From Obrimoposthia wandeli (Eukaryota), in contig CDROCS010002180.1 of NCBI GenBank assembly GCA_977020255.1, positions 124,001-188,000 of the forward strand: a DNA stretch of 64,000 nt, written 5' to 3'. Position 1 is the first letter of the stretch. Each line of letters opens with the position of its first letter. Position numbers and translations under genes: made by a program. The notes beneath the pieces were generated by a model that had not been told where the DNA came from, made no database searches, and saw only the letters and a program-made list of their open reading frames with translations. Shown here piece after piece: positions 6,057-55,234 of this stretch.

Positions 6057-7186
6057 CATATATAATACTTAGTTTTTTTTGTATAATTAGATAATAATAG
6101 TTGCATCCAGAGTCTTTTATTGTTTTTTTTCATTGTGAGTAAATGTGCCAATATTTTATGTTACATTTAATTTCAATAGTATTTATAAAGGTATTTGTAT
6201 TTAATTAGAACTACAATCATTATGATGTATTTCTTTATTAAATTAAAGCATCAGACAAAAATGAATAAAAAATTATTCAAAAGTTATAAATAAAAGGATC
6301 TTTCAAAATAAGTATTTGTTCAAATTTTAATCTTACAAACTGCATAATCCTACTGTATTCTTGGTTCACAGTCAATGACACTAAAATATAAATTGTTTTT
6401 TATTTTTATTGAAAAAATAACTTTTAATAAAATATTTCTTTGAAACATATTTTTTCTAATTATAGTCATATTTTTTATAATTAGCTAAAGTATTATTTGA
6501 TATTTTAAATGGTAGGATTTCCATGTTATAAACCCATAGATTATTAAAAATTCACTTCGAATAAATATTTTGTTAAGAGGTTTCACGTTTAATTTTAAGT
6601 ACACAAACAATTTTGAATATTTAGAGGTGAATCCTAAAGAATAAATTTCAAAATTTATAGTGGTAAATAATAATGAAAATAAATGGGGAAAAAGTCAGTA
6701 TATGTGTTTATGTATTTTTTAATTAAATGAAATATAAAATTGCTTTATATATTTAAATATAGAAGACATTTTATTTATAATTTAAAATAAACTTTTTCAT
6801 TTTAAATGATAATCAAAATAATGATTTTGATTAATTTTATTTTTATATTTTTAAAGTAAGAAAATGAATTTTAATATCCTTTTAAATACTATAAAAACTA
6901 TTAAATACTGCATAAACTATTATATGAAATGAATCCATATTCTCAGAAGTAATAATCTAGTATTTCAAATTTCAGCTGCATTTAATTCATACATTTTTGT
7001 GCATTGTATATAATATAAGAAAATTTAAAATACTATTTATACAAATTAATTTAATAATTCATAAACTTTTAAGTATTGCGCTAAGGTTGATTATATTTTT
7101 AATTAGTTATTACAATGGAAACAAAATTAGATTTATTAAAAGATGTAATTTTTTGACATTTTGCTGTATTTCATTCATCATTTTAG

Positions 7187-10069: not shown

Positions 10070-10845
10070 CTAGTTCACATTCAGGACTGCACTGGAAGTC
10101 TTTCTTGGCTTTCTTAAGACCATATGATAGTGGTGAAAGAATGTCGACAGCATTACGAATAAATCTGTGTTAAAATTGATCATACCAAGATATTCCCGTA
10201 ATTGGCGCTGTGATTGTGGTCTAAGAAACTTTTTTATAGCACGTATTCTCTTTGTAGGCGGAAGAATCCATGTTGCATCGATAAGATGCCCGAGAAAGGT
10301 GATAAATATTTTTCCAAATTCGCATTTTGCTTTGTTTATTATCAGACTATTATCGTTGAGTCGGCCAAACAGCTTCTTAATATGATTGACATGGTCTTCC
10401 TCAGATTGACTAAATACTAATATGTCGTCCAAATAGACGTAAACAAAATCCAGGCCATGACAAACCTTATCCATCAGTCTCTGAAATGTTTGTCCTGCGT
10501 TCCGGAATCCAAATGGCATCCTCAAATACTCGAACATCCCAAATGGTGTTGTTATAGCCGTTTTAGAAATGTCGTTCGGAGCAATAGGAATTTGATGATA
10601 TCCTCTGATAAGATCGATTTTCGCAAAAAACTTCATCCCGGCTAGCTTCTGGTTGCAATCTTGAATATGAGGAATGGTATATATATCGGGAGTAGTAGCT
10701 TGGTTCAGATCGCGGTAGTCTCCACATGGTCTCCATTCCGTTTTTTTAGATTTCGGAACCATATGAAGAGCTGATGCCCAAGGACTGTTAACACTTGGAG
10801 TTATTCCTGTCTCTAGCATATAATCAAATTCCTTAATTGTTTCTG
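10070..10845 (-). pseudogene. Gypsy reverse transcriptase
   Basis: [61 protein letters not shown]. Confidence 0.95.
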
Positions 10846-10859
10846 GTTGCATCATTTTG

Positions 10860-12013
10860 TCTTGGTTATCCGTCGCTGTTTTGACATTTCTTCGATTGCA
10901 GTTTTTCCGATAATCAACTGTACTTGTTTGCCTTGTATCACTAGCTCTCCGAATCCATCCTAGGCTGACAAATATGTTTTATGTCCTTCTTTGTATTCGA
11001 TTATCACTCTCTTACTTCAATACTTTCGGGTTTTCTATGACATCTCCGTCGAATATATACGTTGTACCTTTTGTATCCATTTCTTTTTGTATCTTTTTCG
11101 TTAATTCGGATATTTTTGTTCACATCCTGCAAACGTTTATGATATTTTATCGAGTGTGCATTGTCGGTCAGCTTCGTAGTCCATTCAGAATAGACCCAGT
11201 TGTTTGTTTCACGTGTAATATATCGCTTCGCTTACTATGTTATCCAATATCCTTCTGTCTAGACAAATAAGTACTTCCACCGTTGGTCCATTTGGTCTTT
11301 TCATTTTCACATACTGGAATCGTTCTGTGCCATTTTTTATGAGTCGAAATAATTCAACAATTCCAATAATATTTCGGACTTCAACGTTAAAATAAGTTAA
11401 ACAATACTTCGCACTCGCATTGTTATAACAACTCAAATAATTTAGTACCCTTATCCCTCCGCTACTGTCGTCTAGAATCCTCTGTACTGTTGCTTAGGTT
11501 TTGTTGAAGTTCTGGTTCAGGATTTCTGTAAATGGAGAATCAATTTCGATTCTTAATTATAGTGACTTACCGTGGAAACTGGTTGGATGCAGGCTGACGA
11601 GACACGAGTTAACTAATGAAGTTTCTCCGCTGCTGAGACACGAATTGACTAATGGATTTTCTCCTAGCGTCGGGATGTTTCGACAGGTGCTAATTTTCCA
11701 CAACTAATTGATTGTTGGGTTTGTAATTTGAGTTTCGACTCGCGGCTTTCACCAGCTGCTAATTCCCACAACACAAATTTCTTTTTTCAATTAATTACAT
11801 TTTTTCTTGTTTTTGCTTAACTAAAACTTTAATTATCTTATATAGTTTTCCCCATGACCTTCCAAGGTCCTCCTAATTCATTTAATTTATCATTTCAATT
11901 CCAAAATTAACTTATTTTTTTAATTTTATTTTGACCTTTAAGTCAAGGGTTTAAAATTCTAGTTTAAATAATTATTATTTTTTACTTTATTTCTTAATTT
12001 CCTAATTCTAACA
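10860..12013 (-). mobile_element. LTR-family sequence (5' part of a long LTR) with ORF-like remnants
   Basis: Begins TGTTAGAATTAGG at 12013 on minus; shares the gacc..caaggtcc..aatt block and cagctg..ttcccaca motif with the solo LTR at 25273-26769. Confidence 0.5.
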
Positions 12014-23590: not shown

Positions 23591-24370
23591 TTATATTAAA
23601 GTGCAAATAGGTCCAACATAATTATACTGGTTTTCAGTTTCAATTTCCTTCAAAATATCACCAATGCAAGGACAATAGCTTCTGTGGTAATGGTAAAGTT
23701 CGAAGAACTGTTTCTTCAATTGGCACAGAATCTGTGTAACATTTCTCAAAAAATTATCGTCACCAGTATCGGAATCCAGACAGTACTTGACAATCTCCTC
23801 CAAGCCCATATTCGTCCATGCCGGATCGAATTTGACAGCATTGTTTCCCTTGTAAAATGTATTTCTCGACAATTTATTTACCTCCCGCAAAGGTGCAAAT
23901 TCCGGTGCTACTATCAATTGATCTTCCATACCAACCCACTCTGTCACACGATCGTCCACAATCACGAACAGATCTAGCAGTTCATGAGGAAACATGGCTC
24001 GAAAATAATGGCTTTTATTTAGGTAACCCTGAAAATCTGACCGACAAAATATTCGATTGCCGAAGTTCACTCCTAGCGGATCGATAAACCCCAGAACGTA
24101 GTTCGCGTAATCGTGGGTACCCTTGGTAGCTACACATAACTCGAAATCGTCACTCAATTTTTCAATTGTCGTTTGCAAGAATGGCCTTTTCACTAACACG
24201 TCGCCTGTGTTTTGCTTGTTATCAAACTCGACGCGTTTGTTGCAGGTGTCAACCTTAAGATCAAAGATGTTAGCATAAGAAACTAAAGTTTCGTCAAGGT
24301 CCAGTATCAGAATCAACTTTTTATTTTCAATGTAATAAGACTGGCTATGAAAAAATTGCTGAGGGAGCAT
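23591..24370 (-). CDS. Intronless FCP1/CTDP1-like HAD phosphatase (FCPH domain only), copy A, 259 aa
   Basis: KKLILILDLDETL (DxDxT), KRP, ATKG, FGNRIFCR, NK, VDDR, DDNFL...FF; no BRCT; ORF intact. Confidence 0.9.
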   Translation of the reverse strand: MLPQQFFHSQSYYIENKKLILILDLDETLVSYANIFDLKVDTCNKRVEFDNKQNTGDVLVKRPFLQTTIEKLSDDFELCVATKGTHDYANYVLGFIDPLGVNFGNRIFCRSDFQGYLNKSHYFRAMFPHELLDLFVIVDDRVTEWVGMEDQLIVAPEFAPLREVNKLSRNTFYKGNNAVKFDPAWTNMGLEEIVKYCLDSDTGDDNFLRNVTQILCQLKKQFFELYHYHRSYCPCIGDILKEIETENQYNYVGPICTLI

Positions 24371-25272
24371 GCTGTATTTTGCTATGAATAATTTTAGTTT
24401 ATTTTAGATTATATGTGAAAATATTACTTCAAAAGTATTTAATAGAAAGGAATACATTATGTAATTTGTATTATAATATATTTCCCTAAAATATCTACGT
24501 CACCGAATGAAGATTAGTTACGTTTACTGTTGTTGGGTTTTTCTTTAAACTGTTTTTGAAGCCTCTCTCAATTGGGGTTTTCTGAAGGCTAAATTTGTTG
24601 TGTTGTGTGAATTTCTATGTAAAATGTGATAAAAATCGTAACACATTCAAAATCTGGTGTTGTGTAGAGCTTTGTTGAATAGTCGTTTAGGCGTATGAGT
24701 TAAGGCTTTAATAATAGTCTTGACTGTGATTAGGAGATTTGGACAAACCAAGAGCAATTTAGAGCCTGTAGCGTATAACGATTACTGTATGAGCTCTAAA
24801 CAACAAGAGTCAATGTCACCAAGTCACTACACTCACAGTAAGTGCAGATCCAAAAATGGCTGTCTAGTCCTACTAGTTGGTTCTTCTCGAATGAGTTGTT
24901 TTAAAATTTTAAGATTAAAATGATTAAAGTTTAGCTTATATCAATAAAATGCATAGACTATACTCTTCTACATTTGCTATTAAATTTTAACATTTTCTGT
25001 ATATTTTTCTGTAGTCAATTTGATGTCAATTTGGGTGAACAAAAATATATCAATAAATAAAATAAAAATCCATTTGATAAGTTATAAATACTCAAAATCG
25101 TCAACTAAAATGACAACAATTCTTGGTTTCTTAAAGTACCAATAGTTGCTCTTTTGGGCCCTTGCAGCTTATCCAGGTTCAGTTATTTGGATATATTGTT
25201 CTGTTTAAAAATCAAATATTGTAGCCACTCAAGAAGTGTAAAGTGTCGGTTCGAAAATAATAGCACACAAGG

Positions 25273-31026: not shown

Positions 31027-31312
31027 TCTCGAGTGTTCAGGATATCATCAATGTGAGGAGTCACTTCTCCGTCTTTGTGAATTATGTTAAAGAATTCTTT
31101 TTTCAATTGGGACAGAATCTTTGTAACATTTGTTAGAAATTTGTCGCCAATATCGGAATCCAGACAATTTTCTACAATCTCTCCCAAGCCCATATTCTTC
31201 CATGCCGGATTAAAGCGTTTACCCAAATATATATGTTCACACAAATGGCATACCTCTCGCAAAGGGGCAAATTCCGGTGCTATTATCAATTGATTTTCCA
31301 TACCAGCCCAAA
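31027..31312 (-). pseudogene. 5'-truncated FCP1-like paralogue (copy B, A-type)
   Basis: GMENQLIIAPEFAPLREV...FNPAWKNMGLGEIV..CLDSD.GD.FL aligns with the copy A C-terminus; the catalytic N-terminus is absent. Confidence 0.85.
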
Positions 31313-33968: not shown

Positions 33969-35062
33969 TTCAACGTTAATAACATCATCGTCATTTGCAC
34001 TCGGCCATGAGCTGCACGAGTTTTACTCGTTCTTTCAATGAAAACATTTCCAATCTATAAATAAGTAAAAAGCGTCACATGAGTGTATAATTTTGATGTA
34101 TTAGTTCTGTAAATATAAATTTTAATTAAATATTTTATTGCGTTTTCAAATAGGAAAGTGACTTTTATGACCTCCAGTATCATGACTATTTTAAAATTTA
34201 TTTCCGTAAAAATGTCGCCATATGCGTAATAACAATACATTTTTGGATACAAAACTACGAACATCAGAGCTAAGTTCATATATGATGTTTCAAAGTTTAG
34301 CACATTATCTGGAAACTGAGAAGTTGATCTTGATGGTGGATCTCGACGAGACACTGCTTTGCAGTGCTGATCTATTTGACCTTGACGTCGTTATCAATGA
34401 CAGGGAGGGTGTGTTTATTAGCAGAAGTGATAACCACCAGACAGTGACTGTGTTGCGTCCTTTCATGGCGGACAGTCTCTGGCAGCTCAGCCAGCATTTT
34501 GAGCTGTGGTTGGCCACAAACGGTGGACGGCAATACGCTATGAATATGTTGAAAATCATCGATCCGAATGCTGACCTATTCGGAAACCGGGTGTTGACTC
34601 GCTCGGATTTCGGGGCCAAGCAAATGAATAAGATGCAAGCAGTGGAAAGGCTTTTGCCACACGAGCTCAGGAAAATTGTTGTAGCCCTGGACGACAGACT
34701 GGACGTGTGGAGTAACTGTGAGTTTGTGCTACAGATAGCTCCGTTCTCGCCGCTGGTCAAACTGAATAGGGAGATTATGAACCGGTTTCTGAACACAAAC
34801 TATCCGGTCTTTCTGGAGCCAGTCTGGCGCCAACTGTCGCTGCAGGACAAGCTCTACCACTCTCTGAACGATGAATGCTGCAGCCAGGACAGATTCCTAC
34901 TCCATGCTACCATGAAACTAGTCAGTATGAAGTGCGCCTACTTTGATCTGGTGAGGCGTCAGCAAAACGAGCTTCCTTACGTAAGCGACTTCCTGATAAA
35001 TGTGCAATGATAATTATACATTTAGTGTACTTTCATATTTTGCCTCATTTAACTACAATTTC
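33969..35062 (+). repeat. Segmental duplicate of 46303-47396 (contains the FCP1-like gene)
   Basis: Collinear at a constant 12334-bp offset, roughly 95% identical by eye. Confidence 0.95.
34282..35010 (+). CDS. Intronless FCP1/CTDP1-like HAD phosphatase, copy C (ORF open from 34222; MMFQ start preferred)
   Basis: KLILMVDLDETL, VLRP, ATNG, IDP..LFGNRVLTR, NK, LDDRLDVW; GC-rich part begins near 34282; no BRCT. Confidence 0.9.
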   Translation: MMFQSLAHYLETEKLILMVDLDETLLCSADLFDLDVVINDREGVFISRSDNHQTVTVLRPFMADSLWQLSQHFELWLATNGGRQYAMNMLKIIDPNADLFGNRVLTRSDFGAKQMNKMQAVERLLPHELRKIVVALDDRLDVWSNCEFVLQIAPFSPLVKLNREIMNRFLNTNYPVFLEPVWRQLSLQDKLYHSLNDECCSQDRFLLHATMKLVSMKCAYFDLVRRQQNELPYVSDFLINVQ

Positions 35063-35639
35063 CTAATCTGCAATCCAATGAAATTAAATTTTGTAGACAA
35101 ATATGACACTCGCTTTAGTATATATCGTTGTCACTATTAAGCATTTACCAATAATATACAAAAGAGTTACAAATATATTTTTTTGTTTACTATCTATATT
35201 CTATTAAATGTATTGTTTCTATATTCTATTACTATTGTTAAGATTAGAAATTGATATAAAATAAAATAAATTAACTATTATAGGAAGAAAGTGAATCTTG
35301 AATAAAAGGTTAAAATTAATAAAATATTAAAATTGTTTAAGAAAATATCTAAAATAAAATTAGGACCTTGAAGAGGTCTTGTGTGTTGCTTTATGTGTAT
35401 AAATAATTTTATTAAGCGGGCAGTAGGGGGAAGTGGGTCTCAAAAAAAAATCTTAAAAATTTCAAGAAAACTTAAAACTTTCAAAAAAATAAATATTATA
35501 ATTTTAAAAAAATAAATTTTTTACAGAAAATAAAATTGTTTACAAAATTTATTATAGTTTAAAAATAATATTTAACACATAATTTTTTACAATATTTTTT
35601 AAGTTTAAAAAATATAATTTTACACAGAACTTTTATACA

Positions 35640-35811: not shown

Positions 35812-36664
35812 CAAAGTATATTGAGGATAATTCCGCGAAAACGGCTAGTTATTCGAGAATATTATTAATTGAATGTTAATTATCTGTTTGGTAAGTTAAT
35901 AGAGAATTTAATGAAGAGAATTAACCTCCGTATTTGTAATACGCCACAAAAGCTTGTTACCTATTGTAGTAAGGCCCAATTCCGTAGGACGATGGAAATC
36001 GACACAAACGTAATAGCTGTTTTACTAAATATGCAAAATGTCGTTTTAGATCGTCCTAGTTATATTGGTCAGGCAGTTCTGGATTTACGTAAGTTAAGGA
36101 TGTATGAGCTTCAATATGTTCAATTAGAGAAATATAGATGTCAGTTTAATTGCGACATTCGAATAATTGCTGGTGACACTGACAGCTTTTTTCTAAAGTG
36201 TGGTAATGTAGATGTACAAGCTACACTGTTGCCAGCAATGATTTCGGTTGGGTTATTAGACACATCGAAATTCCCTATAAACCATTCTTTATTTACTTTA
36301 GCCAATACTGCGATAGGCAAGTTTAAGGATGAGAGTAAGGGTGTCTGTAGATATAAGTAATGGGTATTTTTACGCCCCAAATCATATAGCTTAGAAACTA
36401 TAGACGGAAAGTCCCAGGAGAGCAAAGGGAATTAGCCTTAAGCAGACTGCGCTACGCCATGCGAATTATTTAGCTGCATATATGAGTGGGGTTAGTGAAC
36501 GAGTGCAACAACAACGCATTAGTTAAATTAATCACCAGCTCTATACAGTAAATATGAGTAAGATCGCATTGAGTAGCAATGACGATAAGAGAAAATGGGT
36601 AGAGAAAAACCGGTCAATTGCATATGTACATCACCGATATCCTGATGTTTTTTCACTTGAATGA
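35812..36664 (+). pseudogene. pPolB C-terminal third (Maverick/adintovirus type)
   Basis: LFGK..EN, SYIGQAVLDL.KLRMY, AGDTDS, GKFKDE, RPKSYS, KG, ALSSNDDKR; has a stop and frameshifts. Confidence 0.95.
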
Positions 36665-36779
36665 TGGTTTTTGTATGTTTGAATTTATATGTCACAAATT
36701 TATTGTACCTAATTTTTTCTCTTTGGTTAAATAAATATTTGTATCCAATTTGTCTTTGTCTTTTCTAAAGTATAAAAAT

Positions 36780-37045
36780 TCAGTGTAAAATTTTAATTCT
36801 AAAGTATAAAATTTTAATTCTAAAGTATAAAAGTTCTGTGTAAAATTTTATTTATAAAGTTTAAAAATTCTGTGTAAAATTTTAATTCTTAAGTATAAAA
36901 TTTTAATTCTAAAGTATAAAATTTTAATTCTAAAGTATAAAAGTTCTGTGTAAAATTTTATTTATAAAGTTTAAAAATTCTGTGTAAAATTTTAATTCTT
37001 AAGTATAAAATTTTAATTCTAAAGTATAAAAGTTCTGTGTAAAGT
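36780..37045. repeat. 21-bp (aaattttaattctaaagtata) and ~110-bp higher-order subterminal repeats
   Basis: Seen directly; aagttctgtg at 36831, 36941 and 37030. Confidence 0.9.
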
Positions 37046-38247
37046 TATATTTTTAAACTATTAAAAAAATTGTAAAAATTATGTGTTAAATATTATTTTT
37101 AAAGTATAAAAAATTTTGTAAACAATTTTATTTTCTGTAAAAAAAAATTTTTTTTTAAATTATAAGATTTTTTTTTTGTTGGAAAATATTAAGTTTTTTA
37201 TCTGAAAATTTTAAGAAAATTTGATTATTAAAACAAAATTTTGACCTTGACACGTGCCGTAGTTGCCACGGCAACAATACGTACATGTGGCAAGTGCCAT
37301 GACACGTTCCATGGTGTGTACGTGCCATGACACATGACTTGTTGCTAGGGTCTTCTGGCTGACTTGCACACAGGGCGGGGGGTGAGCCAGAAGACTCACT
37401 TCCCCCTACTGGAGGCCAAGAAATAAATAGTAAGACAAAATAAAAGTAAGAAGAAAATAACTTAATTGGAAATCAGAAAATTATAATTGAAAAGACACTA
37501 AGGAAAGGAAAAAGCAGCAATTAAATGAAGCGCGTGAGAAAATCTTCACCTGGGACTAAGTGCAAATAAAAGGAAGCACTCAGACAGTGCGTAAGAAAAT
37601 TAACAGAAAAATCGCCAGCTTTAGTCGATGAGCAATATCTCTGGGCGGAGAGTGATAATGTTTGTTCGAGCGTGTGTGTGTGTTTTTTGAGTGGAAAATC
37701 TCATACACGCAGATTTTTTTCTGGCCAAGCTCATTTTAAATCTTCTCGAACAATCATCGAGCTTCTGCTGTGTCTGTGTGTTCCTAATAGTGAGGAAGTT
37801 TCCACGAAAGTCTATTAGTGGTCGTAAGGTAATTTTATATAGTACTAAGTTATTACAGAACTGTATTTGAAATTTCAGAAAATTCAATAAGAAACACAGA
37901 AGTAAATGATTGTATATAATTTGATCAAAGATTTGATTTGCGTATTAATTGGAATAATTAGGAACAAGATTTGGAAGAAGAGTAGCGTAAATTTTGATAA
38001 TTAAAATCTGATTTTTAGAACTGTATTATATTCAGAATTGAATTATCTCAAGTTAAACGGATATATATTGACAGGAGCACAAGTGAAAATTGGAAAATTG
38101 TTGGAGGAACTTGGATTACATTTTAGACCATATTATTATAATGATTTGAACCAAATCAGGATATTAATTTGAAACTGGTGAGGCTAGTAGAGATTTGATT
38201 TGCGTATTAATTGGAATAATTAGGAACAAGATTTGGAAGAAGAGTAA

Positions 38248-44410: not shown

Positions 44411-44733
44411 CAGCGGTTTCCAAAACGTGGGGCGCGATCCCCATGAAAGGCTACTGATTTTCTGAAGGGTCGCGTTAAAATATCTTTAGATATTTTAAAT
44501 AAAATTATTGAACATTACCATGAAAGAGTAATCTTCAATAATTTTAAGAAGCTATTTTTTTAAGTTAGAAATTTTAAAATAAGTAGGCCTTGAACCTTTC
44601 GAGGATTTAAATTTGTTTATTAAAAATAGCTTGTGAATTAATAAATATAATTACGTTACTAATTTTTTGAAGAATATGCAAAAGTTTTCTCTTTTTTTAC
44701 TGGATTGCCTTCCAAAATGTTTGGAAACCGCTG
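44411..44733. mobile_element. hAT (Charlie-like) MITE
   Basis: TIRs CAGCGGTTTCCAAA; perfect 8-bp TSD ctctaaaa (44403-44410, 44734-44741). Confidence 0.95.
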
Positions 44734-45866
44734 CTCTAAAAGATTAAAATTGTGTCAGGAATATAAACTACAAAAATTGTTATATAAATAAGATAAAAAA
44801 TCATAAAAATGACCAAATATATATTTAAATTTTATTCCAATTTATTAAATTGTGTGAACAGCACTTTAGCAATGTTAGATTCACTGAGTTGCATCATTTG
44901 ACTGAAAAAATAAGCCTATATTTTGAAAAGGATCTTTCCACATCAGCTCTAGTTAGTGGAAGAAATCGTAATTTGATCGTTCTTTTTACAATCATGGTAT
45001 TTAATCTTCTCAAATTTGGCTTTTTATTTATAGCTCATTCTAATTTCTGTAATTTCTGACTAAAATTATCATCAGTCCAAAATATGAAGAACTCAGAAAG
45101 TTCCTGAAACCCGAGATCTTCGAGTTTTATGACACTAAATACCTACAATTCTATATGACTCCAGAAGTAATATTTCAGTAATATCTTGTTGAAGACTTTG
45201 AAATAACTTAAATTGTTCACAAGTAGTGTAAAGTGTCATTTCTCACACATAATCAGATCCTTGGCACAGACGCCCCTGATGAGTTATATGCTGATCTGCG
45301 AGAATTCGGGATTTCTTAACAGCTGCAACAAAGTACAAGTGACTTGACCTTTGTTCGCCGCTAATAAGGAATCCTGCATTTATGCACTTAAACACACAAC
45401 TCATCGGGGGCATCCCGGCTAAAGATCTGTTTATGGGCACCTTACACTACTTATGAACAATTAAAGTTTTACAGGAACATTGAATTTTAACAAACAGATT
45501 ACCATTCAAAATCATTCATTTTTATTGATTATTACAGAAGTTGTTCACTATAATTGTACTTACAGATGCAATACAAACCGGATGCAATTACAATACAAAA
45601 ACATTTAAATACTAACAAGCGCAAATGCCTACAATCCTAACTTCCTTGTGTATGATATATATTACACTAATGATTTCTGATTCCTATCAATTACCCCACT
45701 TGTCAAAGTATAACAGGCTAACTCCATTTTGTCTAACCCTTAGGTTTGGTTTTCATTCCCAGTAACCCAAAGTTCCTGAATAGTTGATGTTTCCTGCGGG
45801 AAGACTTTTCAACCAAATTTGGATATTGTCGGTGAATGAAATTATGAATAAAGGAATCATCATCTA
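44549..45866 (+). repeat. ~1.3-kb segmental duplicate of 52884-54200
   Basis: Collinear match starting inside the hAT MITE and spanning the micro-element. Confidence 0.95.
45222..45451. mobile_element. 230-bp micro-element with AGTAGTGTAA(A/G)GTG Maverick-like termini
   Basis: Terminal sequence is nearly the same as mini-Maverick 1; GC-richer interior; no direct TSD. Confidence 0.6.
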
Positions 45867-46302
45867 TCCCAAGTGAGGGCAAACATTTCTCCAAAAGGGC
45901 CACATAGAACATCGGTTGGGTTTCCAGACGGCCACAATAAAAAACATTGAAAGTTATGATGATGTAAGTTCTTACATACATGAGAACAATTGGAGACCAG
46001 TAAATTAAAAGCAATATTAACAAACTAAAGTTTTTATTGAACTAATACAAAATAACCAAAACATAAAAATTCAGTAGATATAAAAAATAGATACAGAAAT
46101 TCTAAGTAAAAAATAAGAAATGAAGACTAAATAACTAAGGATATCTATTTTAGTGCGATGAGTGCAGCTGCTTGATATCCTTAATCATTTTATCCATATC
46201 CGGTTGAAATTTTGTATTTGAAATTCTAAGACTTTAATTAAGATGTTGATCTGTTATAGATGTTCGAAGTTCACTTTTATTTATGTTCATTATTTTATTA
46301 TG

Positions 46303-47396
46303 TTCAACGTTAATAACATCATCGTCATTTGCACTCGGCCATGAGCTGCACGAGTTTTACACGTTCTTTCAATGAAAACATTTCCAATCTATAAATAAGT
46401 AAAAAGGGTCACATGAGTGTATAATTTTGATGTATTAGTTCTGTAAATATAAATTTTAATTAAAGATTTTATTGCGTTTTCAAATAGGAAAGTGACTTTT
46501 ATGACCTCCATTATCATGACTATTTTAAAATTTATTTCCGCAAAAATGTCGCCATATGCGTAATAACAATACATTTTTGGATACAAAACTACGAACATCA
46601 GAGCTGAGTTCATATATGATGTTTCAAAGTTTGGCACATTATCTGGAAACTGAGAAGTTGATCTTGATGGTGGATCTCGACGAGACACTGCTTTGCAGTG
46701 CTGATCTATTTGACCTTGACGTCGTTATCAATGACAGGGAGGGTGTGTTTATTAGCAGAAGTGGTAACCACCAGACAGTGACTGTGTTGCGTCCTTTCAT
46801 GGCGGACAGTCTGTGGCAGCTCAGCCAGCATTTTGAGCTGTGGTTGGCCACAAACGGTGGACAGAAATACGCAATGGATATGCTGAAAATCATCGATCCG
46901 AATGCTGAGCTATTCGGAAACCGGGTGTTGACTCGCTCGGATTTCGGGGCCAGGCAAATGAATAAGATGCAAGCAGTGGAAAGGCTTTTGCCATACAAGC
47001 TCTCGAAAATTGTGATAGCTCTGGACGACAGACTGGACGTGTGGAGTAACTGTGAGTTTGTGCTACAGATAGCTCCGTTCTCGCCGCTGGTCAAACTTAA
47101 GATGGAGATTATGAACCGGTTTCTGAATACAAACTATCCGGTCTTTCTGGAGCCAGTCTCGCGCCAACTGTCGCTGCAGGACAAGCTATACCACTCTCTG
47201 AACGATGAATGCTGCAGCCAGGACAGATTCCTCCTCCATACTACCATGAAACTAGTCAATATGAAGTGCGCTTACTTTGATCTGGTGAGGCGCCAGCAAA
47301 ACAAGCTTCCTTACGTAAGCGACTTCCTGAAAAATGTTCAATGATAATTATACATTTAGTGTTCTCTCATATTTTGACTCATTTAACTACAATTTC
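46303..47396 (+). repeat. Segmental duplicate of 33969-35062
   Basis: See partner copy. Confidence 0.95.
46616..47344 (+). CDS. Intronless FCP1/CTDP1-like HAD phosphatase, copy D
   Basis: Same motifs as copy C; ORF intact; about 17 aa differences from C by manual count. Confidence 0.9.
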   Translation: MMFQSLAHYLETEKLILMVDLDETLLCSADLFDLDVVINDREGVFISRSGNHQTVTVLRPFMADSLWQLSQHFELWLATNGGQKYAMDMLKIIDPNAELFGNRVLTRSDFGARQMNKMQAVERLLPYKLSKIVIALDDRLDVWSNCEFVLQIAPFSPLVKLKMEIMNRFLNTNYPVFLEPVSRQLSLQDKLYHSLNDECCSQDRFLLHTTMKLVNMKCAYFDLVRRQQNKLPYVSDFLKNVQ

Positions 47397-48092
47397 AAAC
47401 TTAGGGAACTTTTCCCTTTATGATATTTCGACTTCTAAATTCAAAATCAACTTTTTACTTTATGATAATTCTTCTTCCAAATTTAAAATCAACATTTTAC
47501 TTTATGATAATTCAACTTCTAACTTCAAAATCAACTTTTTACTTTATGATAATTCGACTTCTAACTTCAAAATCAACTTTTAATTTATGATAATTCGACT
47601 CTAAATTCACAATTAACAAAATAATTCAACTTCTAACTTCAAAATCAACACATCACACTACATTAGTTGGAACCTACACTACACAGCTGGGTAGTTTCCA
47701 CGCTTCAATGGATTCCGCGTCTGAGACTCGATGTCAGCTGGTTTGCTTCCGAGTGAACGTTTGTCGTGATAATTGATTTTTCTTTATTAATGAATTTTCT
47801 TTGTAATCTAGATACTTTGGCCTTTCCTCGATATTACGTTTTCGTGTTCTTAATTATTATTTTCTGGGACCCTTTGTCTCAATTTAACTTTCTTTATATG
47901 CTACGCAATACACACGACCTCTTCAAGGTCCTAAATTATTTTAATTTACTATTTTTTAATTTCAACAATTTTTAATGTTTTATTATTTAAATCCTATTTT
48001 AACCTTCAATTCAAGGTGTACTTTTTTCCATAAATAATTATTATTTGAATTTATTTTTCTCATTTTCTAATCTTAACATACCTCCCTTGTTT
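47397..48092 (-). mobile_element. 3' LTR (truncated) with polypurine tract
   Basis: Minus strand reads aaaacaagggaggta|TGTTAAGATTAG, with the LTR starting at 48078. Confidence 0.8.
47416..47650. repeat. 42-bp tandem repeat, ~5.5 copies
   Basis: tttatgata at 47417, 47459, 47501, 47543 and 47584. Confidence 0.95.
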
Positions 48093-48293
48093 TGAAATGG
48101 TTACATCCTCGAAATTTATTGATTTTAAAGGTCATCCTTAGTTCCTATCATACAGGCCTATCTGCATCAAGTTGTAGATATCTATAAAACTTATTCAAAC
48201 CTTGTCAAAAATCGGTAAACTCATCAAAATACGGATTTGTCACGCAAATATTAAATATTAAGCTTTACAATTTTTATTCCGTTTAGAAGATGG

Positions 48294-48870
48294 TTAGGAA
48301 GAAGGTGAAAGAGAAGGAAAAGGTGATGTTTCTGTTAAGTCAATAGTTTGTGATAAACTGTTCGGCTCCTCCTGGATCATCATCACCCTCTCCAGGGGCA
48401 ACGTCGGAAAGACGCGAACGTCGCCGAGATATATCCCAGTTGCTGGAGTACATTGAGTTGCGGGTTCTGATGAAAGATCGGTACGGCCTGGATGTTCAGA
48501 ACGTGTCGCTCTTGAGTGTTGAGCCACACATTCTGTGCGTTTTGCCAGGAGTGTCAATCGCGACTGGAACACTCCACTTCTTTGGCACGCCAGTGCACGT
48601 CGTGACGACGCATTGGGCCTGTGGAGAATGCAGCTTGCGGAAGAGGGTCTGCCCACGAACCGGCCACAGCATTGTACTATTCAATGTTCAAATGGAGTTT
48701 GACACATTGGGCAGATAGCGATGATGGCTGGCCGTGATTTGGCCCGTGTACAGCCCCCCCTCATGAAAACGGTGTGTACACTGTTGTGGGATTGCTGACT
48801 GGTCTCGGAGTCGGTTGAGGCATACAAGGCAGACTATTCTGTTGTTTAGGGTACCTCTTCTTTTGTCAGT
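48294..48870 (-). pseudogene. RING-H2-type E3 ligase-like ORF with C-terminal SIM-like motif
   Basis: CLVC-x13-CTHRFHEGGC-x12-CPMCQTPF at 48702-48831 after removing one G from a 7-G run; one TGA at 48681-48683; then open to ...QTIDLTETSP...* at 48294. Confidence 0.75.
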
Positions 48871-49406
48871 TATGAAATTAAATCCTAGTATTTTAAGTTA
48901 TTACCGAATTTTGCTTTATTACTTGAATACGTTTTGTGAATTGAATTATCGGAAGAATTATCATAAATAGTTGATAGAAAGTTATCGTTATCGTTGAAAG
49001 AAAGAGAGGGTTATCTCTTGGTTACGGTGTGTTGACATAATTTGTTGTTAGACAACCTACTTGTCAATTTGTGAAAACCTTTTTAGTTAGCGTAATAATA
49101 TAGTTTTTCCTACAGTTCAACTAGAATTATTTCAGGTACTCACATATAGCTGTAGAGCACTACCAACCAAGTTACACATCACACTTAATTAGTGGGAACC
49201 ACATCAGTTATATTTGTGAAAAAACTCTTTACACATCTTACAAAATATCTGCATAAACGTTCAGATTGAGAGTAAGTTAAGTAAGACAAAACCTAAATAG
49301 GCCACATCCATATGTAAACCCTATTGCTACAGAACTCACGTTGGGGGCCTCCATAAGAGGATCTATCTAAATCATAGTTTTAAATAGAAACCCCAACATA
49401 TTAAAT

Positions 49407-49421
49407 TGGTGCCCGAGTGAC
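49407..49421 (+). promoter_or_regulatory. Primer-binding-site-like sequence TGGTGCCCGAGTGAC
   Basis: TGG start 9 nt after the LTR CA; cognate tRNA not identified. Confidence 0.55.
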
Positions 49422-49949
49422 GATAGCTCGTCGGACACAGCGAATTCACGTAGAATAAGACAGCGAATTGAGAATAAGTTATAGAAGAAGAATATATAAG
49501 TAAATTGAGATAAGAGAATTGAGAATAAGTGTTTGAATCGAGTTGATAAGTTTCTCGAAGTAAGTAATTTGAATAAGTTTGATAAATTGAGTAGATAAGT
49601 TCCTCAAAGAGATAAATTGAATATATTTGTGAATCAAGTAGATATGTTCCTCGAAGTAAGTAAATTAAATAAGTTTGTAAATCAAGTTGATAAGTTCCTC
49701 GAAGTAAGTAAATTGATATAAATTGTAGAATCGAGAAGATAAGTTCCTTGAAGAGATAAATTGAGATAGAAATTCGTAAAATAATAGTTAAGAAATAAGA
49801 GATAAAAGTAATAAGTAAATCGAAGTCGTAAGAATAAGCAAACAAATAATTGATAAGACGACGGACCTGCGTTTAATACTAGAAGACAAAGTCAAATTTC
49901 CTGAAAATATATAAATAATAATAGTCAGAGCCGAGTTGAACAGATTCCT

Positions 49950-51430
49950 CTAGCAGATAAAGAAGTATTAGAAGAACTTAGAGTCGAAGAAAACGTATCA
50001 GAAAGAGACGTTAATCAGTCAGCAGTTTCAACTGACAGTTTTGAATTGGCTGACTTGTTTGGTGAAGTAAACCAAGAAGAAGTTGAAGTTGTTGAAGTTG
50101 TGAATCAAGGAGATATTGAAATTGCCAATCCATAAGGAATTGAGGAAGTTAATTTGAATAATATCGAAGAAATAGCTGGAAATATGGCTCACGCAGGAGC
50201 TCATCAAGAAGATAATGCAGGAATAATGCAGGACATACTGTAGGTAATATGAATGCAGAACAGTTGGCACAGGTATTGAATGCGACGTTGAAACCCAACT
50301 TTTGGGGATCATTGCAGATCACAAAGTTAAAAGGAGATGAGGAAAGTATTTGTGACTTCCTCGCGGAATATTCGAGTTGTGCAAACGTTCAAGGATGGAA
50401 CGATAGAGAAAAATGTGTCCGTTTACAGGCAAATTTGACAGGATTAGCACTTGAATTGTATAAACACATGACAGCAGCAGAACGTGAAAATTGGGCAACA
50501 TTGGAAAATGCTTTTATAGTAAAATTGGTATTGGGAGATTTTGCAAAAGTGAATAAGTGAATTTTGAGAGAACGAAAACAGAAACAATATGAGGACATGA
50601 ATGAATACGCGTATGTTTTAAAAACCTTGGCACCACGAGTGCATCCAAGAAAAATATTGAGAAATCTTGCAGGCGAACCTGTAGCAGCAGATGTACAATT
50701 AGCGGAAGATAATCGGAACTAAAATGAAATGGCAGAAGTTTTGCTGGATATATTCAGAGGAGGACTGAAAAAAGATAGTAAAGTGTTATTGGCAAATGAT
50801 TTTGACAACGCCATGCGAAAGGCGGGAGAAATTGAGAAGAATATAAAGATTAATGCAGCATTATCAATTTATGCAGTAACGGAAAATTATGATGAAAAGA
50901 CAAAAGTGTTTGTGAATAAGACAGAACCAAGTAATTTTCAAAATCGGAATTATTGACAAAATGAGTTCAAATACAGCAATAAGTTTGAGAAAAGAGATGA
51001 ATTTAGAAACGGAAATATAGATAATTTCAGAAGTAGAAATAGAGATGATTCGAGTGGTAGAAATAATAATGATTCGTGGAATAGAAATTGACACGATCCG
51101 AGAAATTGATTTAATTCAAATTGAGACAATTCAGGAAATTGCTTCCCTGAAGAGGAGACGATCGGAATTATAATGTGAACAGAGGAGAGCGAAATGACTC
51201 TCAATTCAGAAATAATGCAGGAGATAGTGATGGAAGATTCAATAATCGATAAGCGGTTATGAATCAAATTTCCGAAGAAATGATTTTAGAGGACGCTATG
51301 ATAATAGACAGAATAGTCGTCGAGTACAGTTCAAAGATAAACAGAATAAAATAGATATCCGAGGAAGAATAATGTATTATACGTGTAAACAAATGGGTCG
51401 CTACTCGAGAGATTGTACAAGAAGTAAGGA
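49950..51430 (+). pseudogene. Gypsy gag (capsid plus degenerate zinc knuckle)
   Basis: DFLAEYSSCANVQGWNDREKCVRLQANLTGLALELY; FRGGL; YYTCKQMGRYSRDC. Confidence 0.85.
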
Positions 51431-52171
51431 ATTCGGAAATAGTAGATTCAGTAATAATAATTTTGGATATAATTCACCCCACTATGGAATAGATGTGGTA
51501 GGTATACCCCGCCGCAATGGAGACGAATAATCATTACATAGATAGACAACAGTCGCCAGGAAGATATAATAATTATGCAGACAGACAGCAAGGAGCTGAG
51601 AGATACAATAATTCAGGAGGATATAATATTAATGTTGATAAAACGAGATAGTCGGGAGAGCTCATAAAATTCAAAAATAAATTTAAGCTTCATAAATGAT
51701 GACAGTGATAGTTATCGTGAAACAAAACTTAGACATGAAATAGATTTTGAAGATAATGATAATAAATTCGAACAAATGTTAGGAATAATTGAAGATTCAC
51801 CACATACAAAGATGGAAAATTCATCTACATTGTCACGAAAAGGAAAAAAGCATCACACTAGAGAAGATCTTAATGATTTAATGAACCGAGTACTAGAAGC
51901 GTACGAGACACCAATAGAAAATAGTTGTAACGCACAAATAATGTCTGGTCATGTAAAAACAGCAAAAATTTCAAAGAAATCAAAAATGCAAGCGAAATAA
52001 TTAGTGAAGCTAAAGAAATATTGAGCCAATCGCTAGATGAAGCAAGTGAAGCCTCAGAAGACTTTATTAAATTACAAAAAGTAAAATCGCACAAATCGAA
52101 AGAATTACGAGCAGAACTGGTTAAGCACAGCCATGACAACCTGACCTACAAAGACGTAGCGCGAGAATGAT

Positions 52172-52540
52172 ATGAAAGGATATGGTCGTTATGTACAGAG
52201 AGCAAATCAAAAGGAGACGATAAATATTTCACTCCGATTAATTAATGGACAAATTATGCTTGAGAAACTTAACGTGTTCCAAACAATGAAGATTATCCGA
52301 AGAAAAATAGCAGACAAACTCGGAATATACGGAATGAATCTGTTGTTTCATTATAACGGAAGGTCACTGGACGACGAGGATGTACCGGTCGAGTGCGGAT
52401 ATCCGATAGAAAGTGAATCAGAAAAGAAAATTTATGTGATTACTTTAAGACAACAGGAATTAGTAGATAATGAAGGACTGTCAGAAATATTGAATCCTGC
52501 ACCAGACATGATAAAAAACCCTTATAGAAATCTTAGATAG
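52172..52540 (+). CDS. Ubiquitin/SUMO-like domain ORF (122 aa)
   Basis: INISLRLINGQ...TMKIIRRKIADKLGI..MNLLFHYNGRSLDDEDVPVECG follows the beta-grasp pattern; no di-Gly. Confidence 0.6.
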   Translation: MKGYGRYVQRANQKETINISLRLINGQIMLEKLNVFQTMKIIRRKIADKLGIYGMNLLFHYNGRSLDDEDVPVECGYPIESESEKKIYVITLRQQELVDNEGLSEILNPAPDMIKNPYRNLR

Positions 52541-53556
52541 TTCAGCTTAACAAAGTGACAGTGGAAACACTGATATAACTGAAGTTTAGAACAAGACACC
52601 CACACCTGAGGTGAACGAAAATGAACCACAAATTGTCGTACCGAACAATGAGTTGACAAATTTAGTAGACGAGGTACAACCACAACAAGTAATTAGTCAA
52701 ACTGGACAGGACCAAATCACGAACGCAGCCGAACCTGTTAGAGAAGATGAAATCTCAGAAATTGTAGACCTGGATTCACCAATTTGGCATGTCGCATACA
52801 GAGACAGACAAGCTGATCAAACGGCACGACAAAGTGAAGATATACGATATAGCGATGAGCTGTATAATCAAGCAGATTTTTCAAAGCTATTTTTTAAGTT
52901 AGAAATTTTAAAAAAAGTAGGCCTTGCACCTTTTAAGGTTTTAAATTTGTTTATTAAAAATGCTTTTGAATTAATAAATATAATTACGTTACTAATTTTT
53001 TGTAAAGAAAATGCGAATGTTTTCTCTTTTTTTTACTGGAGTGCCTTCCAAAATGTTTGGAAACCGCTGCTCTAAAAGATTAAAATTGTGTCGGAACATA
53101 AACTACAAAAATTATTATATAAATAAGATAAAAAATCATAAAAATGACCAAATATATATTTAAATTTTATTCCAATTTATTAAATTGTGTGAACAGCACT
53201 TTAGCAATGTTAGATTCACTGAGGTTGCATCATTTGACTGAAAAAATATGCCTATATTTTGAAAAGGATCTTTCACATCAGTTGTAGTTAGTGGAAAAAA
53301 TCGTAATTTGATCTTTCTTTTTACAATAATGATATCTAATCTTCTCAAATTTGGCTTTTTATTTATAGCTCATTCTAATTTCTGTAATTTACGACTAAAA
53401 TTATCATCAGTCCAAAATATGAAGAACTCAGAAAGTTCCTGAAACCCGAGATCTTCGAGTTTTATGACACTAAATACCTACAAGTCTATATGACTCCAGA
53501 AGTAATATTTCAGTAATATCTTGTTGAAGACTTTGAAATAACTTAATATGTTCACA

Positions 53557-53786
53557 AGTAGTGTAAAGTGTCATTTCTCACACATAATCAGATCCTTGGC
53601 ACAGACGCCCCTGATGAGTTATATGCTGATCTGCGAGAATTCGGGATTTCTTAACAGCTGCAACAAAGTACAAGTGACTTGACCTTTGTTTGCCGCTAAT
53701 AAGGAATCCTGCATTTATGCACTTAAACACACAACTCATCAGGCTAAAGGTCTGCTTATGTGCAAGAAGTGACGCCTTACACTACT
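53557..53786. mobile_element. Second copy of the 230-bp AGTAGT-ended micro-element (inside the segmental duplicate)
   Basis: Same termini and flanks as 45222-45451. Confidence 0.6.
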
Positions 53787-55234
53787 TATGAACAATTAAA
53801 GTTTTACAGGAACATTGAATTTTAACAAACAGATTACCATTCAAAATCATTCATTTTTATTGATTATTACAGATGTTGTTCACTATAATTGTACTTACAG
53901 ATGCAATACAAACAGGATGCAATTACAATACAAAAACATTTCAATACTAACAAGCGCAAATGCCTACAATTCTAACTTCCTTGTGTATGATATATATTAC
54001 ACTAATGATTTCTGATTCCTATCAATTACCCCACTTGTCAAAGTATAACAGGCTAACTCCATTTTGTCCAACTCTTAGGTTTAGTTTTCATTCCCAGTAA
54101 CCCAAAGTTCCTGAATAGTTGATGTTTCCTGCGGAAGCCTTTTCAACCAAATTTGGATATTGCCGGTGAATGAAATTAGAAATAATGGAATGATCATCTA
54201 ACCAGTTTGTATCTCTTTTATCAAAGTACTGCTAGACGTCTAAATTGTTGCGAGAAGTAGATCTTATGACTCGGCGAATCAAGTGACTCAAGTATCTTCA
54301 GGGTATCCCTCATATAACTCGAGTTACTATATAGAATTTTCCTGCCACACATGACAACGAAATAAAAGCCAATATTATAACAAAATTGGCAGATTAGCCA
54401 GTTGTGGGTAACTCTTCTTTGTTCCACAATACTATTTGGCGTTGTGTGGTAACATTTTAAATTTATAGCATCTCCAAAAAACATATAGTCGATGTTTGTC
54501 ACCCGGTTTAAAGAGAAGAGTTAAGTATACATTTAATTAATAATTATGATGGACCAAGACCCAGAAATAAGCAGTTGTCAGGGAGGTTGCCGTAGTAATG
54601 TTTGGGAACAGTCGATATTACCTTATAATTACTGAAGTTCATTAATGTCTTTTGATGAAAATTTCTTCATATCACAAAAATCGAATGACATTGCCAAATT
54701 CACTTCAGAAAAATTTAAATCAGGCAGAAAAATATCGATACATTCATGACTTCCGAAAACTAATTTTAGTTACTATGTCTGTATCTATATATTTTCTACA
54801 CATTTTATATTCTGATTTTCAAGATTCGATTTTGAATAAAAATTATCAATTTAATGGGCTTCAATGGGATAATACTTTTGAGAAAAATATAATAAAAATT
54901 TATAAAAATAAACAAAAAAATAAAATTTGTATAAATCTCTTCATACTATATACACATGTTTGTTGTTGTGAAAATCGAATACTACATCATCAACATCGCT
55001 GTACAAAGATAGATAGAGAGAGATAAAGAAATGGGTGCTAGAATCAGATATTGCACATAGATCTAGAGTGCTTCTAAGGCGTTGTCTAAAAGAGGGAGCA
55101 TGGTTGGTCACAATGTTGCTCCCTCTCGAGTCGATAGGCAGCGCCATGACCCCAGTAGCTGCATTGAATGTGCGAGGCCTAAAAAACATGAATAAACATT
55201 TAATCATTTTAGTATACCATTTACTCTCAATCTC

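What the first reader, a model, noticed from the sequence alone, without database searches (positions are those of the whole stretch)
48079..48870. RING-H2 plus SIM-like ORF (STUbL-like) immediately upstream of a retrotransposon PPT and 3' LTR
Seen: a C3H2C3-type ligand set, ~120 further codons ending in TIDLTE, in sense orientation ~200 bp before the PPT; only one stop and one homopolymer indel disrupt it. It is not apparent from the ORF track. Known: RING plus SIM defines SUMO-targeted ubiquitin ligases (RNF4, TOPORS, viral ICP0-like), and SUMO pathways silence TEs. Inference: an LTR element carrying an anti-silencing E3 ligase in the env/extra-ORF position.
Basis: partly seen in the sequence, partly recalled or inferred. 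Interest (0 to 1): 0.72.

Follow-up and report, generated by a model that had tools for sequence, protein, structure and literature searches.

The report
Giant retrotransposon carries SUMO-aimed ligase gene
This is a dead copy of a gene that a giant jumping element of a likely planarian flatworm keeps under selection in many copies; the gene is predicted to encode a ubiquitin ligase with a SUMO-binding tail, which would let the element destroy SUMO-tagged host proteins, possibly those that silence it.

Summary
The RING-H2 plus TIDLT remnant is real, on the minus strand (48837 to 48294), about 215 bp before a true LTR start at 48078. It is RING-C, the last of three tandem RING-H2 genes at the 3' end of a 21-23 kb Burro-like Gypsy element (gag, env, BIR-RING, pol, dual-specificity phosphatase). 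At least 150 copies exist; 56 of 62 examined lie just upstream of the LTR. Among 26 stop-free copies dN/dS is 0.21, and the IDLT core is near-invariant (pN 0.05, pS 0.73) while its flank drifts (pN 0.39). So it is selected element cargo, not chance juxtaposition. Corrections: the window copy is far more broken than stated (lost start, three frame-shifting deletions, two stops), the 'PPT' is not a purine run in relatives, and the piece is inverted against the rest of its LTR. A STUbL-like function is plausible: one PIAS-type motif, intact E2-binding residues, weak model support for SUMO binding (0.37 vs control 0.01). Activity, expression and anti-silencing are untested. The scan already found this element, with its three RINGs, on other DNA; the selected SIM-like tail is what this adds.

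The parts
48294..48837 (-). RING-C remnant: decayed RING-H2 + Cys cluster + helical C-terminal region + TIDLT (pseudogene copy)
   Evidence: 64-76% DNA identity to 6 intact relatives
48702..48837 (-). RING-H2 ligand set, split by a frameshift
48333..48347 (-). TIDLT, SIM-like motif (PIAS/SIMb-type IDLT core)
48079..48095 (-). short purine-containing element at the PPT position, directly before the LTR
47407..48078 (-). 5' part of the LTR (head from TGTTAAG, U3-like part, 42-bp tandem repeats)
48934..49398 (+). 3' part (tail) of an LTR of the same family ending ...CCCCAACA; with 48078-47407 it tiles one LTR, so 47407-48933 is inverted against it
49407..49421 (+). primer-binding-site-like TGGTGCCC motif, as after 5' LTRs of full copies
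49864..52833 (+). decayed gag region of the same element family, truncated
   Evidence: 60-88% aa identity to copy C5134

Best explanation
The window holds a dead, inverted copy of RING-C, the last of three RING-H2 accessory genes that a 21-23 kb Burro-like retrotransposon keeps under purifying selection just before its 3' LTR, and intact RING-C is likely a ubiquitin ligase whose C-terminal IDLT tail is predicted to bind SUMO. Shown: architecture, linkage, copy number, selection on RING and motif, decay of this copy. Inferred from known RING chemistry: the RING recruits a ubiquitin-charged E2. Inferred, weakly modelled: the tail docks in the SUMO groove, steering the ligase to SUMOylated nuclear proteins in the manner of viral STUbLs (ICP0, ORF61). 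Speculative: the targets are SUMO-dependent silencing or restriction factors acting on the element.
For: Full copies with paired LTRs (96.6%, 94.5%, 90.1%; 3 of 8 copies fetched) and 4-bp target duplications in two; domain order gag-CCHC, Monjiviricetes fusion protein, protease, BIR, RING-HC, protease, RT, RNase H, integrase, DSPc, TM ORF, RING-A, -B, -C. LTR head downstream in sense in 56 of 62 distinct copies, 55 of them within 137-327 bp. dN/dS 0.21 (codon bootstrap 0.16-0.27), 17 young vs 9 older stop-free copies. All 8 ligands intact in 19 of 26; E2-contact positions conserved (Trp 25, Pro 24, Arg after last Cys 26 of 26; their role is recalled knowledge). IDLT: D and T 26 of 26, I and L 25 of 26, six different Leu-position codons; pN 0.05 / pS 0.73 against pN 0.39 in the six residues before; motif in 53 of 62 copies including decayed ones; chance of [IV]DLT in shuffles 0.15%. 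VIDLT is PIAS1's high-affinity SIMb core, VDLT the RNF4 SIM2/3 (PMC3901395, passages). Complex model of residues 140-176 with a flatworm SUMO: weak support, 0.37 vs best of 3 controls 0.01, runs agree in at least 62% of contacts, partner pLDDT at least 73; that mark was reached by 51 of 78 solved and 2 of 108 mismatched pairs, at 0.60 or under by only 5 of the 78 and by all 4 mismatches that passed. SUMO is required for piRNA-guided silencing in Drosophila (10.1101/533091, abstract).
Against: Only one SIM-like motif, whereas RNF4 needs tandem SIMs for chain avidity (PMC3901395). The residue before IDLT is Thr, not Val/Ile, and older subfamilies have a Ser/Pro tail, not an acidic one. Two other C-terminal blocks (132-143, 153-162) are as constrained (pN 0.10, 0.06), so IDLT could be part of a folded domain. 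The model pass is in the range where passes are more often wrong than right, used a Macrostomum SUMO as stand-in, gave no interface, and SIM-SUMO complexes are solved, so it may be memory. An IDLT motif can bind Ubc9 instead (adenovirus E1A EVIDLT; PMC5030357, passage). The element's other cargo (BIR-RING, phosphatase) points to cell death and stress signalling, not chromatin. No expression data. The pairwise dN/dS values are not independent and the copies were chosen as stop-free.
Confidence: 0.45

Rival explanations
1. RING-C is an ordinary virus-like RING E3 in the element's survival and signalling toolkit (with the IAP and the phosphatase); IDLT binds Ubc9 or SUMO only for localisation, or another partner, and does not select SUMOylated substrates.
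For: Three RINGs in a row, all selected (RING-A 0.31, RING-B 0.37 in frame, 0.7-1.6 off frame), two without an IDLT; nearest look-alikes by features are RING proteins of large DNA viruses and Preplasmiviricota (scores 0.90-0.91); E1A EVIDLT binds Ubc9 (PMC5030357); Burro1's RING-BIR protects stem cells from apoptosis (as cited in PMC13465017).
Against: The motif matches the best-known SIM class and sits at an exposed C-terminus; weak model pass with SUMO.
Confidence: 0.3
2. IDLT is conserved because it is a structural strand that packs on the orphan helical C-terminal domain; it is not an interaction motif.
For: Neighbouring blocks are equally constrained; no homologue of the C-terminal region was found to show otherwise.
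Against: The six residues between the last helix and the motif vary freely (pN 0.39), the motif ends the protein in the young subfamily, and D and T, typical of SIMb, are the invariant positions.
Confidence: 0.13
3. The tail binds the element's own ubiquitin/SUMO-like domain in the Gag-linked polyprotein, so RING-C acts on particle assembly or turnover, not on host silencing.
For: Burro polyproteins carry a Ubi2/SUMO-like domain (PMC6431247 section 7); a ubiquitin-like stretch is seen by eye at window 52172-52522.
Against: Pfam gave no hit on the matching ORF of copy C5134 (protein 4); binding not modelled.
Confidence: 0.1
4. Chance juxtaposition of a host RING pseudogene and an LTR.
For: The window copy is broken and rearranged.
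Against: 56 of 62 copies LTR-linked; present in full elements with paired LTRs.
Confidence: 0.02

Closest known systems
Burro / GYPSM1 giant Gypsy elements of planarians (PMC6431247 section 7, read; Burro1 B-IAP as cited in PMC13465017, passages; the two primary papers were not held)
   Same: Over 20 kb, long LTRs with tandem repeats, fusion glycoprotein between gag and pol, BIR plus RING, flatworm host, high copy number.
   Different: Shorter (21-23 kb vs over 30 kb); a 3' cassette of dual-specificity phosphatase, TM ORF and three RING-H2 genes, none described in the passages read; MATH, BCL2, ankyrin and dUTPase not detected by Pfam here.
Cellular STUbLs RNF4 and RNF111/Arkadia (PMC3901395, PMC5030357, passages)
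   Same: RING plus a SIMb-type (V/I)DLT core.
   Different: One motif, not a tandem array; RING is N-terminal and H2-type with the motif C-terminal; no sequence similarity found beyond the RING.
Viral STUbLs ICP0, VZV ORF61, KSHV K-Rta (named in PMC5030357)
   Same: Encoded by a genomic parasite; N-terminal RING with downstream SIM-like sequence (layout of ICP0/ORF61 recalled).
   Different: 176 aa, RING-H2, retroelement-encoded; no homology shown; function untested.
Additional 3' ORFs of LTR retrotransposons (PMC5408684, PMC7264820, term search; AlkB cargo in PMC12786077, passage)
   Same: Extra genes between pol and the 3' LTR, some thought to counter host control.
   Different: Neither of the two papers searched contains the words RING, ubiquitin or SUMO.

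Membership tests
STUbL | RING domain with zinc ligands and E2-contact residues | tested here: met
   Intact copies: zf-RING_2 over cut-off; 19 of 26 with all 8 ligands, Trp/Pro/Arg conserved. Not met in the window copy.
STUbL | SIM consensus sequence | tested here: met
   IDLT core in 53 of 62 copies, selected; preceding residue is Thr, not the Val of PIAS1.
STUbL | Physical SUMO binding through the SIM | tested here: inconclusive
   Weak model support only, 0.37 vs 0.01, no interface given.
STUbL (RNF4 type) | Tandem SIMs for poly-SUMO avidity | tested here: not met
   One [IV]DLT motif in the alignment of intact copies.
STUbL | SUMO-dependent ubiquitination of substrates | not testable with these tools
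   Needs biochemistry.
Burro-like giant Gypsy | Paired LTRs, target duplication, over 20 kb | tested here: met
   21.4-22.6 kb, LTR pairs 90-97%, 4-bp duplications in 2 of 3.
Burro-like giant Gypsy | Fusion glycoprotein between gag and pol | tested here: met
   PF24664 E 2.5e-68, upstream of protease and RT.
Burro-like giant Gypsy | BIR plus RING (IAP module) | tested here: met
   PF00653 and PF13920 in one ORF of copy C2108.
Burro-like giant Gypsy | BCL2, SUMO-like, MATH, ankyrin, dUTPase motifs | tested here: inconclusive
   No Pfam hit at E 0.01 in 42 ORFs; the paper used HHpred, which is more sensitive.
Burro-like giant Gypsy | RT groups with Burro1-4 in a tree | not tested
   No Burro reference sequence was available from a tool.

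The most novel reading that the evidence does not exclude
A retrotransposon encodes its own SUMO-targeted ubiquitin ligase, an ICP0-like counter-defence evolved independently, that degrades SUMOylated piRNA/heterochromatin silencing factors so that the element can be expressed in planarian stem cells.
Probability: 0.22. Interest if true: 0.85.

Novelty: new variant of a known kind. Interest (0 to 1): 0.58.

Why it matters
Viruses attack SUMO-dependent silencing with STUbLs, and SUMO is needed for piRNA-guided transposon silencing in flies, but my searches found no paper reporting a transposon-encoded STUbL (library limits apply, and the two primary Burro papers were not held). A 176-aa natural protein with one removable motif makes the question 'do animal retrotransposons encode anti-silencing ligases' directly testable in an RNAi-tractable group. 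Even under the main rival, a selected three-RING cassette adds to the known Burro toolkit.

Tried and rejected
Plus-strand reading of 48079-48870: no RING in three frames. Taking the plus-strand purine run near 48997-49010 as the PPT, or the LTR tail at 48934 as the LTR start: rejected, the LTR begins at 48078 on minus. Homologue search with intact RING-C: 0 of 35 candidates at E 0.001; profile search gave 330 hits, the 150 listed all centred on the RING, none reaching past profile position 106, and only 2 of 150 hold [IV]DLT. AlphaFold model of RING-C: pLDDT 40, unusable, so no fold search. Expression: no RNA holder listed; no evidence either way. No contig shown bridges the inversion joint at 48934, so real inversion versus assembly error is open. 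The 226-codon open frame overlapping RING-A/B: dN/dS 0.7-1.6 off frame over the RINGs, so probably not a gene. NIF phosphatase genes as element cargo: DNA search finds only the local duplicate. Generic SIM cores elsewhere: expected in 64% of shuffles, ignored. Three of 29 stop-free ORFs were dropped before the selection counts because they were internally out of frame. No off-frame control was run for RING-C itself. PMC13047482 and PMC5797480 were not held; their figures and supplements may already show 3' RING ORFs in Burro. PMC13238120 passages added nothing. Scan look-ups by sequence and by words gave nothing.

Full report
Observation. The plus strand of 48079-48870 shows no RING. On the minus strand the ligand set is present but split: first Cys pair at 48837-48820 and C-x-H-x2-H at 48780-48763 in one frame, the last Cys pair at 48713-48702, a stop at 48683-48681 and TIDLT at 48347-48333 in another, ending at 48294. 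The LTR starts at 48078: loci chosen for the LTR alone, and window positions 35236 and 12013, begin their similarity at this base with unrelated flanks, whereas RING-linked copies share the upstream sequence. The purine tract before it is mostly AAAACCCCGGAGGTA-like in relatives, so the position is right but 'polypurine tract' is loose.

State of this copy. Pairwise alignment with 6 intact relatives shows the window copy 2 nt short near 48746-48751, about 20 nt short near 48627 and 1 nt short near 48435. One public contig (X1) is identical to the window over 48334-48904; another of the same sample (X2, depth 5) has one base fewer in the C run. The copy is dead whichever is right. Window 48078-47407 (minus) and 48934-49398 (plus) together tile one LTR in loci such as L020, L009 and L165, followed by a PBS-like motif and decayed gag, so the 1.5-kb piece with RING-C is inverted against the rest of the LTR; no listed contig bridges the joint.

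The element. A DNA search with the RING region gave 349 candidates and matches in all 40 places scored; a protein search gave 14,820 candidates, 150 scored, all at E below 1e-53, about 60 without a stop (hand count). Of 8 young copies fetched, 3 showed both LTRs: 96.6% over 1,667 bp (21.9 kb), 94.5% (22.6 kb), 90.1% (21.4 kb), with 4-bp target duplications in the first two. Pfam on 42 ORFs gives the order gag-CCHC, Monjiviricetes fusion glycoprotein, protease, BIR, RING-HC, protease, RT, RNase H, integrase, DSPc phosphatase, a TM ORF, RING-A, RING-B, RING-C. The host SUMO exon's named nearest relatives are flatworm proteins. Env between gag and pol plus BIR is the Burro layout of planarians (PMC6431247 section 7, read); Burro1's RING-BIR protects stem cells (as cited in PMC13465017). 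Earlier notes of this scan reached the same element and its three RINGs on other pieces (seen after my own).

Linkage and selection. Of 80 loci examined (best hits of two searches and 20 hand-picked stop-free copies), 62 distinct copies matched the C-terminus; 56 have the LTR head downstream in sense, 55 within 137-327 bp. Among 26 stop-free copies (29 found, 3 dropped as internally out of frame) dN/dS between 17 young and 9 older copies is 0.21, codon bootstrap 0.16-0.27; pairs are not independent. All eight ligands are intact in 19 of 26, and the Trp, Pro and Arg that contact E2-ubiquitin in RING ligases (recalled) are kept in 25, 24 and 26. RING-A and RING-B are also selected in frame (0.31, 0.37) and not off frame (0.7-1.6).

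The motif. IDLT has D and T in 26 of 26, I and L in 25 of 26, with synonymous change near saturation (pN 0.05, pS 0.73), while the six residues before it vary (pN 0.39). It is found in 53 of 62 copies; of the other 9, six alignments ended before it, one is shifted at it and two have one substitution. A match to [IV]DLT arises in 0.15% of shuffles. VIDLT is the high-affinity SIMb core of PIAS1 and VDLT the core of RNF4 SIM2/3 (PMC3901395, passages). Against: there is one motif only, preceded by Thr; two nearby blocks are as constrained; and E1A's EVIDLT binds Ubc9 (PMC5030357, passage). A complex model of residues 140-176 with Macrostomum SUMO gave weak support: 0.37 against 0.01 for the best of 3 controls, runs agreeing in at least 62% of contacts, partner pLDDT at least 73; the mark was reached by 51 of 78 solved and 2 of 108 mismatched pairs, at 0.60 or under by 5 of the 78 and all 4 passing mismatches; on eukaryotes by 39 of 65 and 2 of 126; like complexes are solved, so it may be memory, and no interface was given.

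Relatives outside. No protein matches beyond the RING; look-alikes by features are RING proteins of large DNA viruses and Preplasmiviricota at 0.90-0.91, a lead only. The structure model was unusable. No RNA run was listed.

Mechanism. Most likely (0.45): intact RING-C is an E3 whose tail binds SUMO and so works like a small viral STUbL; membership of the STUbLs is unproven, and the tandem-SIM feature of RNF4 is not met. That its targets are silencing factors (0.22) rests on analogy with Drosophila, where SUMO is needed for piRNA-guided silencing (10.1101/533091, abstract). Rivals: a general survival or signalling E3 with another use of the motif (0.3), a structural strand (0.13), binding to the element's own ubiquitin-like domain (0.1), chance (0.02).

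Novelty. The element is a variant of a known kind. Searches found no report of a transposon-encoded STUbL by title and abstract listing, and two papers on additional ORFs lack the words RING, ubiquitin and SUMO; the two primary Burro papers could not be read, so the cassette may be figured there. Interest 0.58.

Noticed in passing
window 23591-24403 (-), 34210-35010 (+), 46529-47344 (+); fragments 31143-31310: Three intronless NIF/FCP1-like phosphatase ORFs (PF03031, E 1e-15 to 1e-19); the DNA search finds only the local duplicate, so a local gene cluster rather than element cargo.
   Followed up: partly
L104 1954-2688 and 49 other copies: RING-A and RING-B lie in one frame, separated by a single TAA in 44 of 50 copies: read-through or re-initiation could give a double-RING protein.
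   Followed up: partly
L118 (minus-oriented 6326-7000), L119 1-900, L107: A different repeat next to three copies encodes an acidic ORF with repeated YIDLxSQD/E SIM-like motifs; unidentified.
   Followed up: no
P0001 residues 57-81: A second conserved Cys cluster (C57, C70, C76, C78, C81 in 23-26 of 26 copies) follows the RING: a possible extra zinc site with no known match.
   Followed up: no
window 44541-45869 and 52876-54203: 1.33-kb direct repeat (94%) with an internal imperfect palindrome, flanking the 7-kb block that holds the finding.
   Followed up: no
window 10834-11361, 11853-12013, 35236-35415: Further scattered fragments of the same element family (3' region and LTR heads).
   Followed up: partly
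window 35869-37400; L052, L056, L064: Polinton-like pieces (DNA polymerase B; capsid-like ORFs by eye) lie in the window and beside or inside several element copies.
   Followed up: no
L153-L159: A high-copy ubiquitin-like domain fused to a gag-like ORF of another retroelement family.
   Followed up: no
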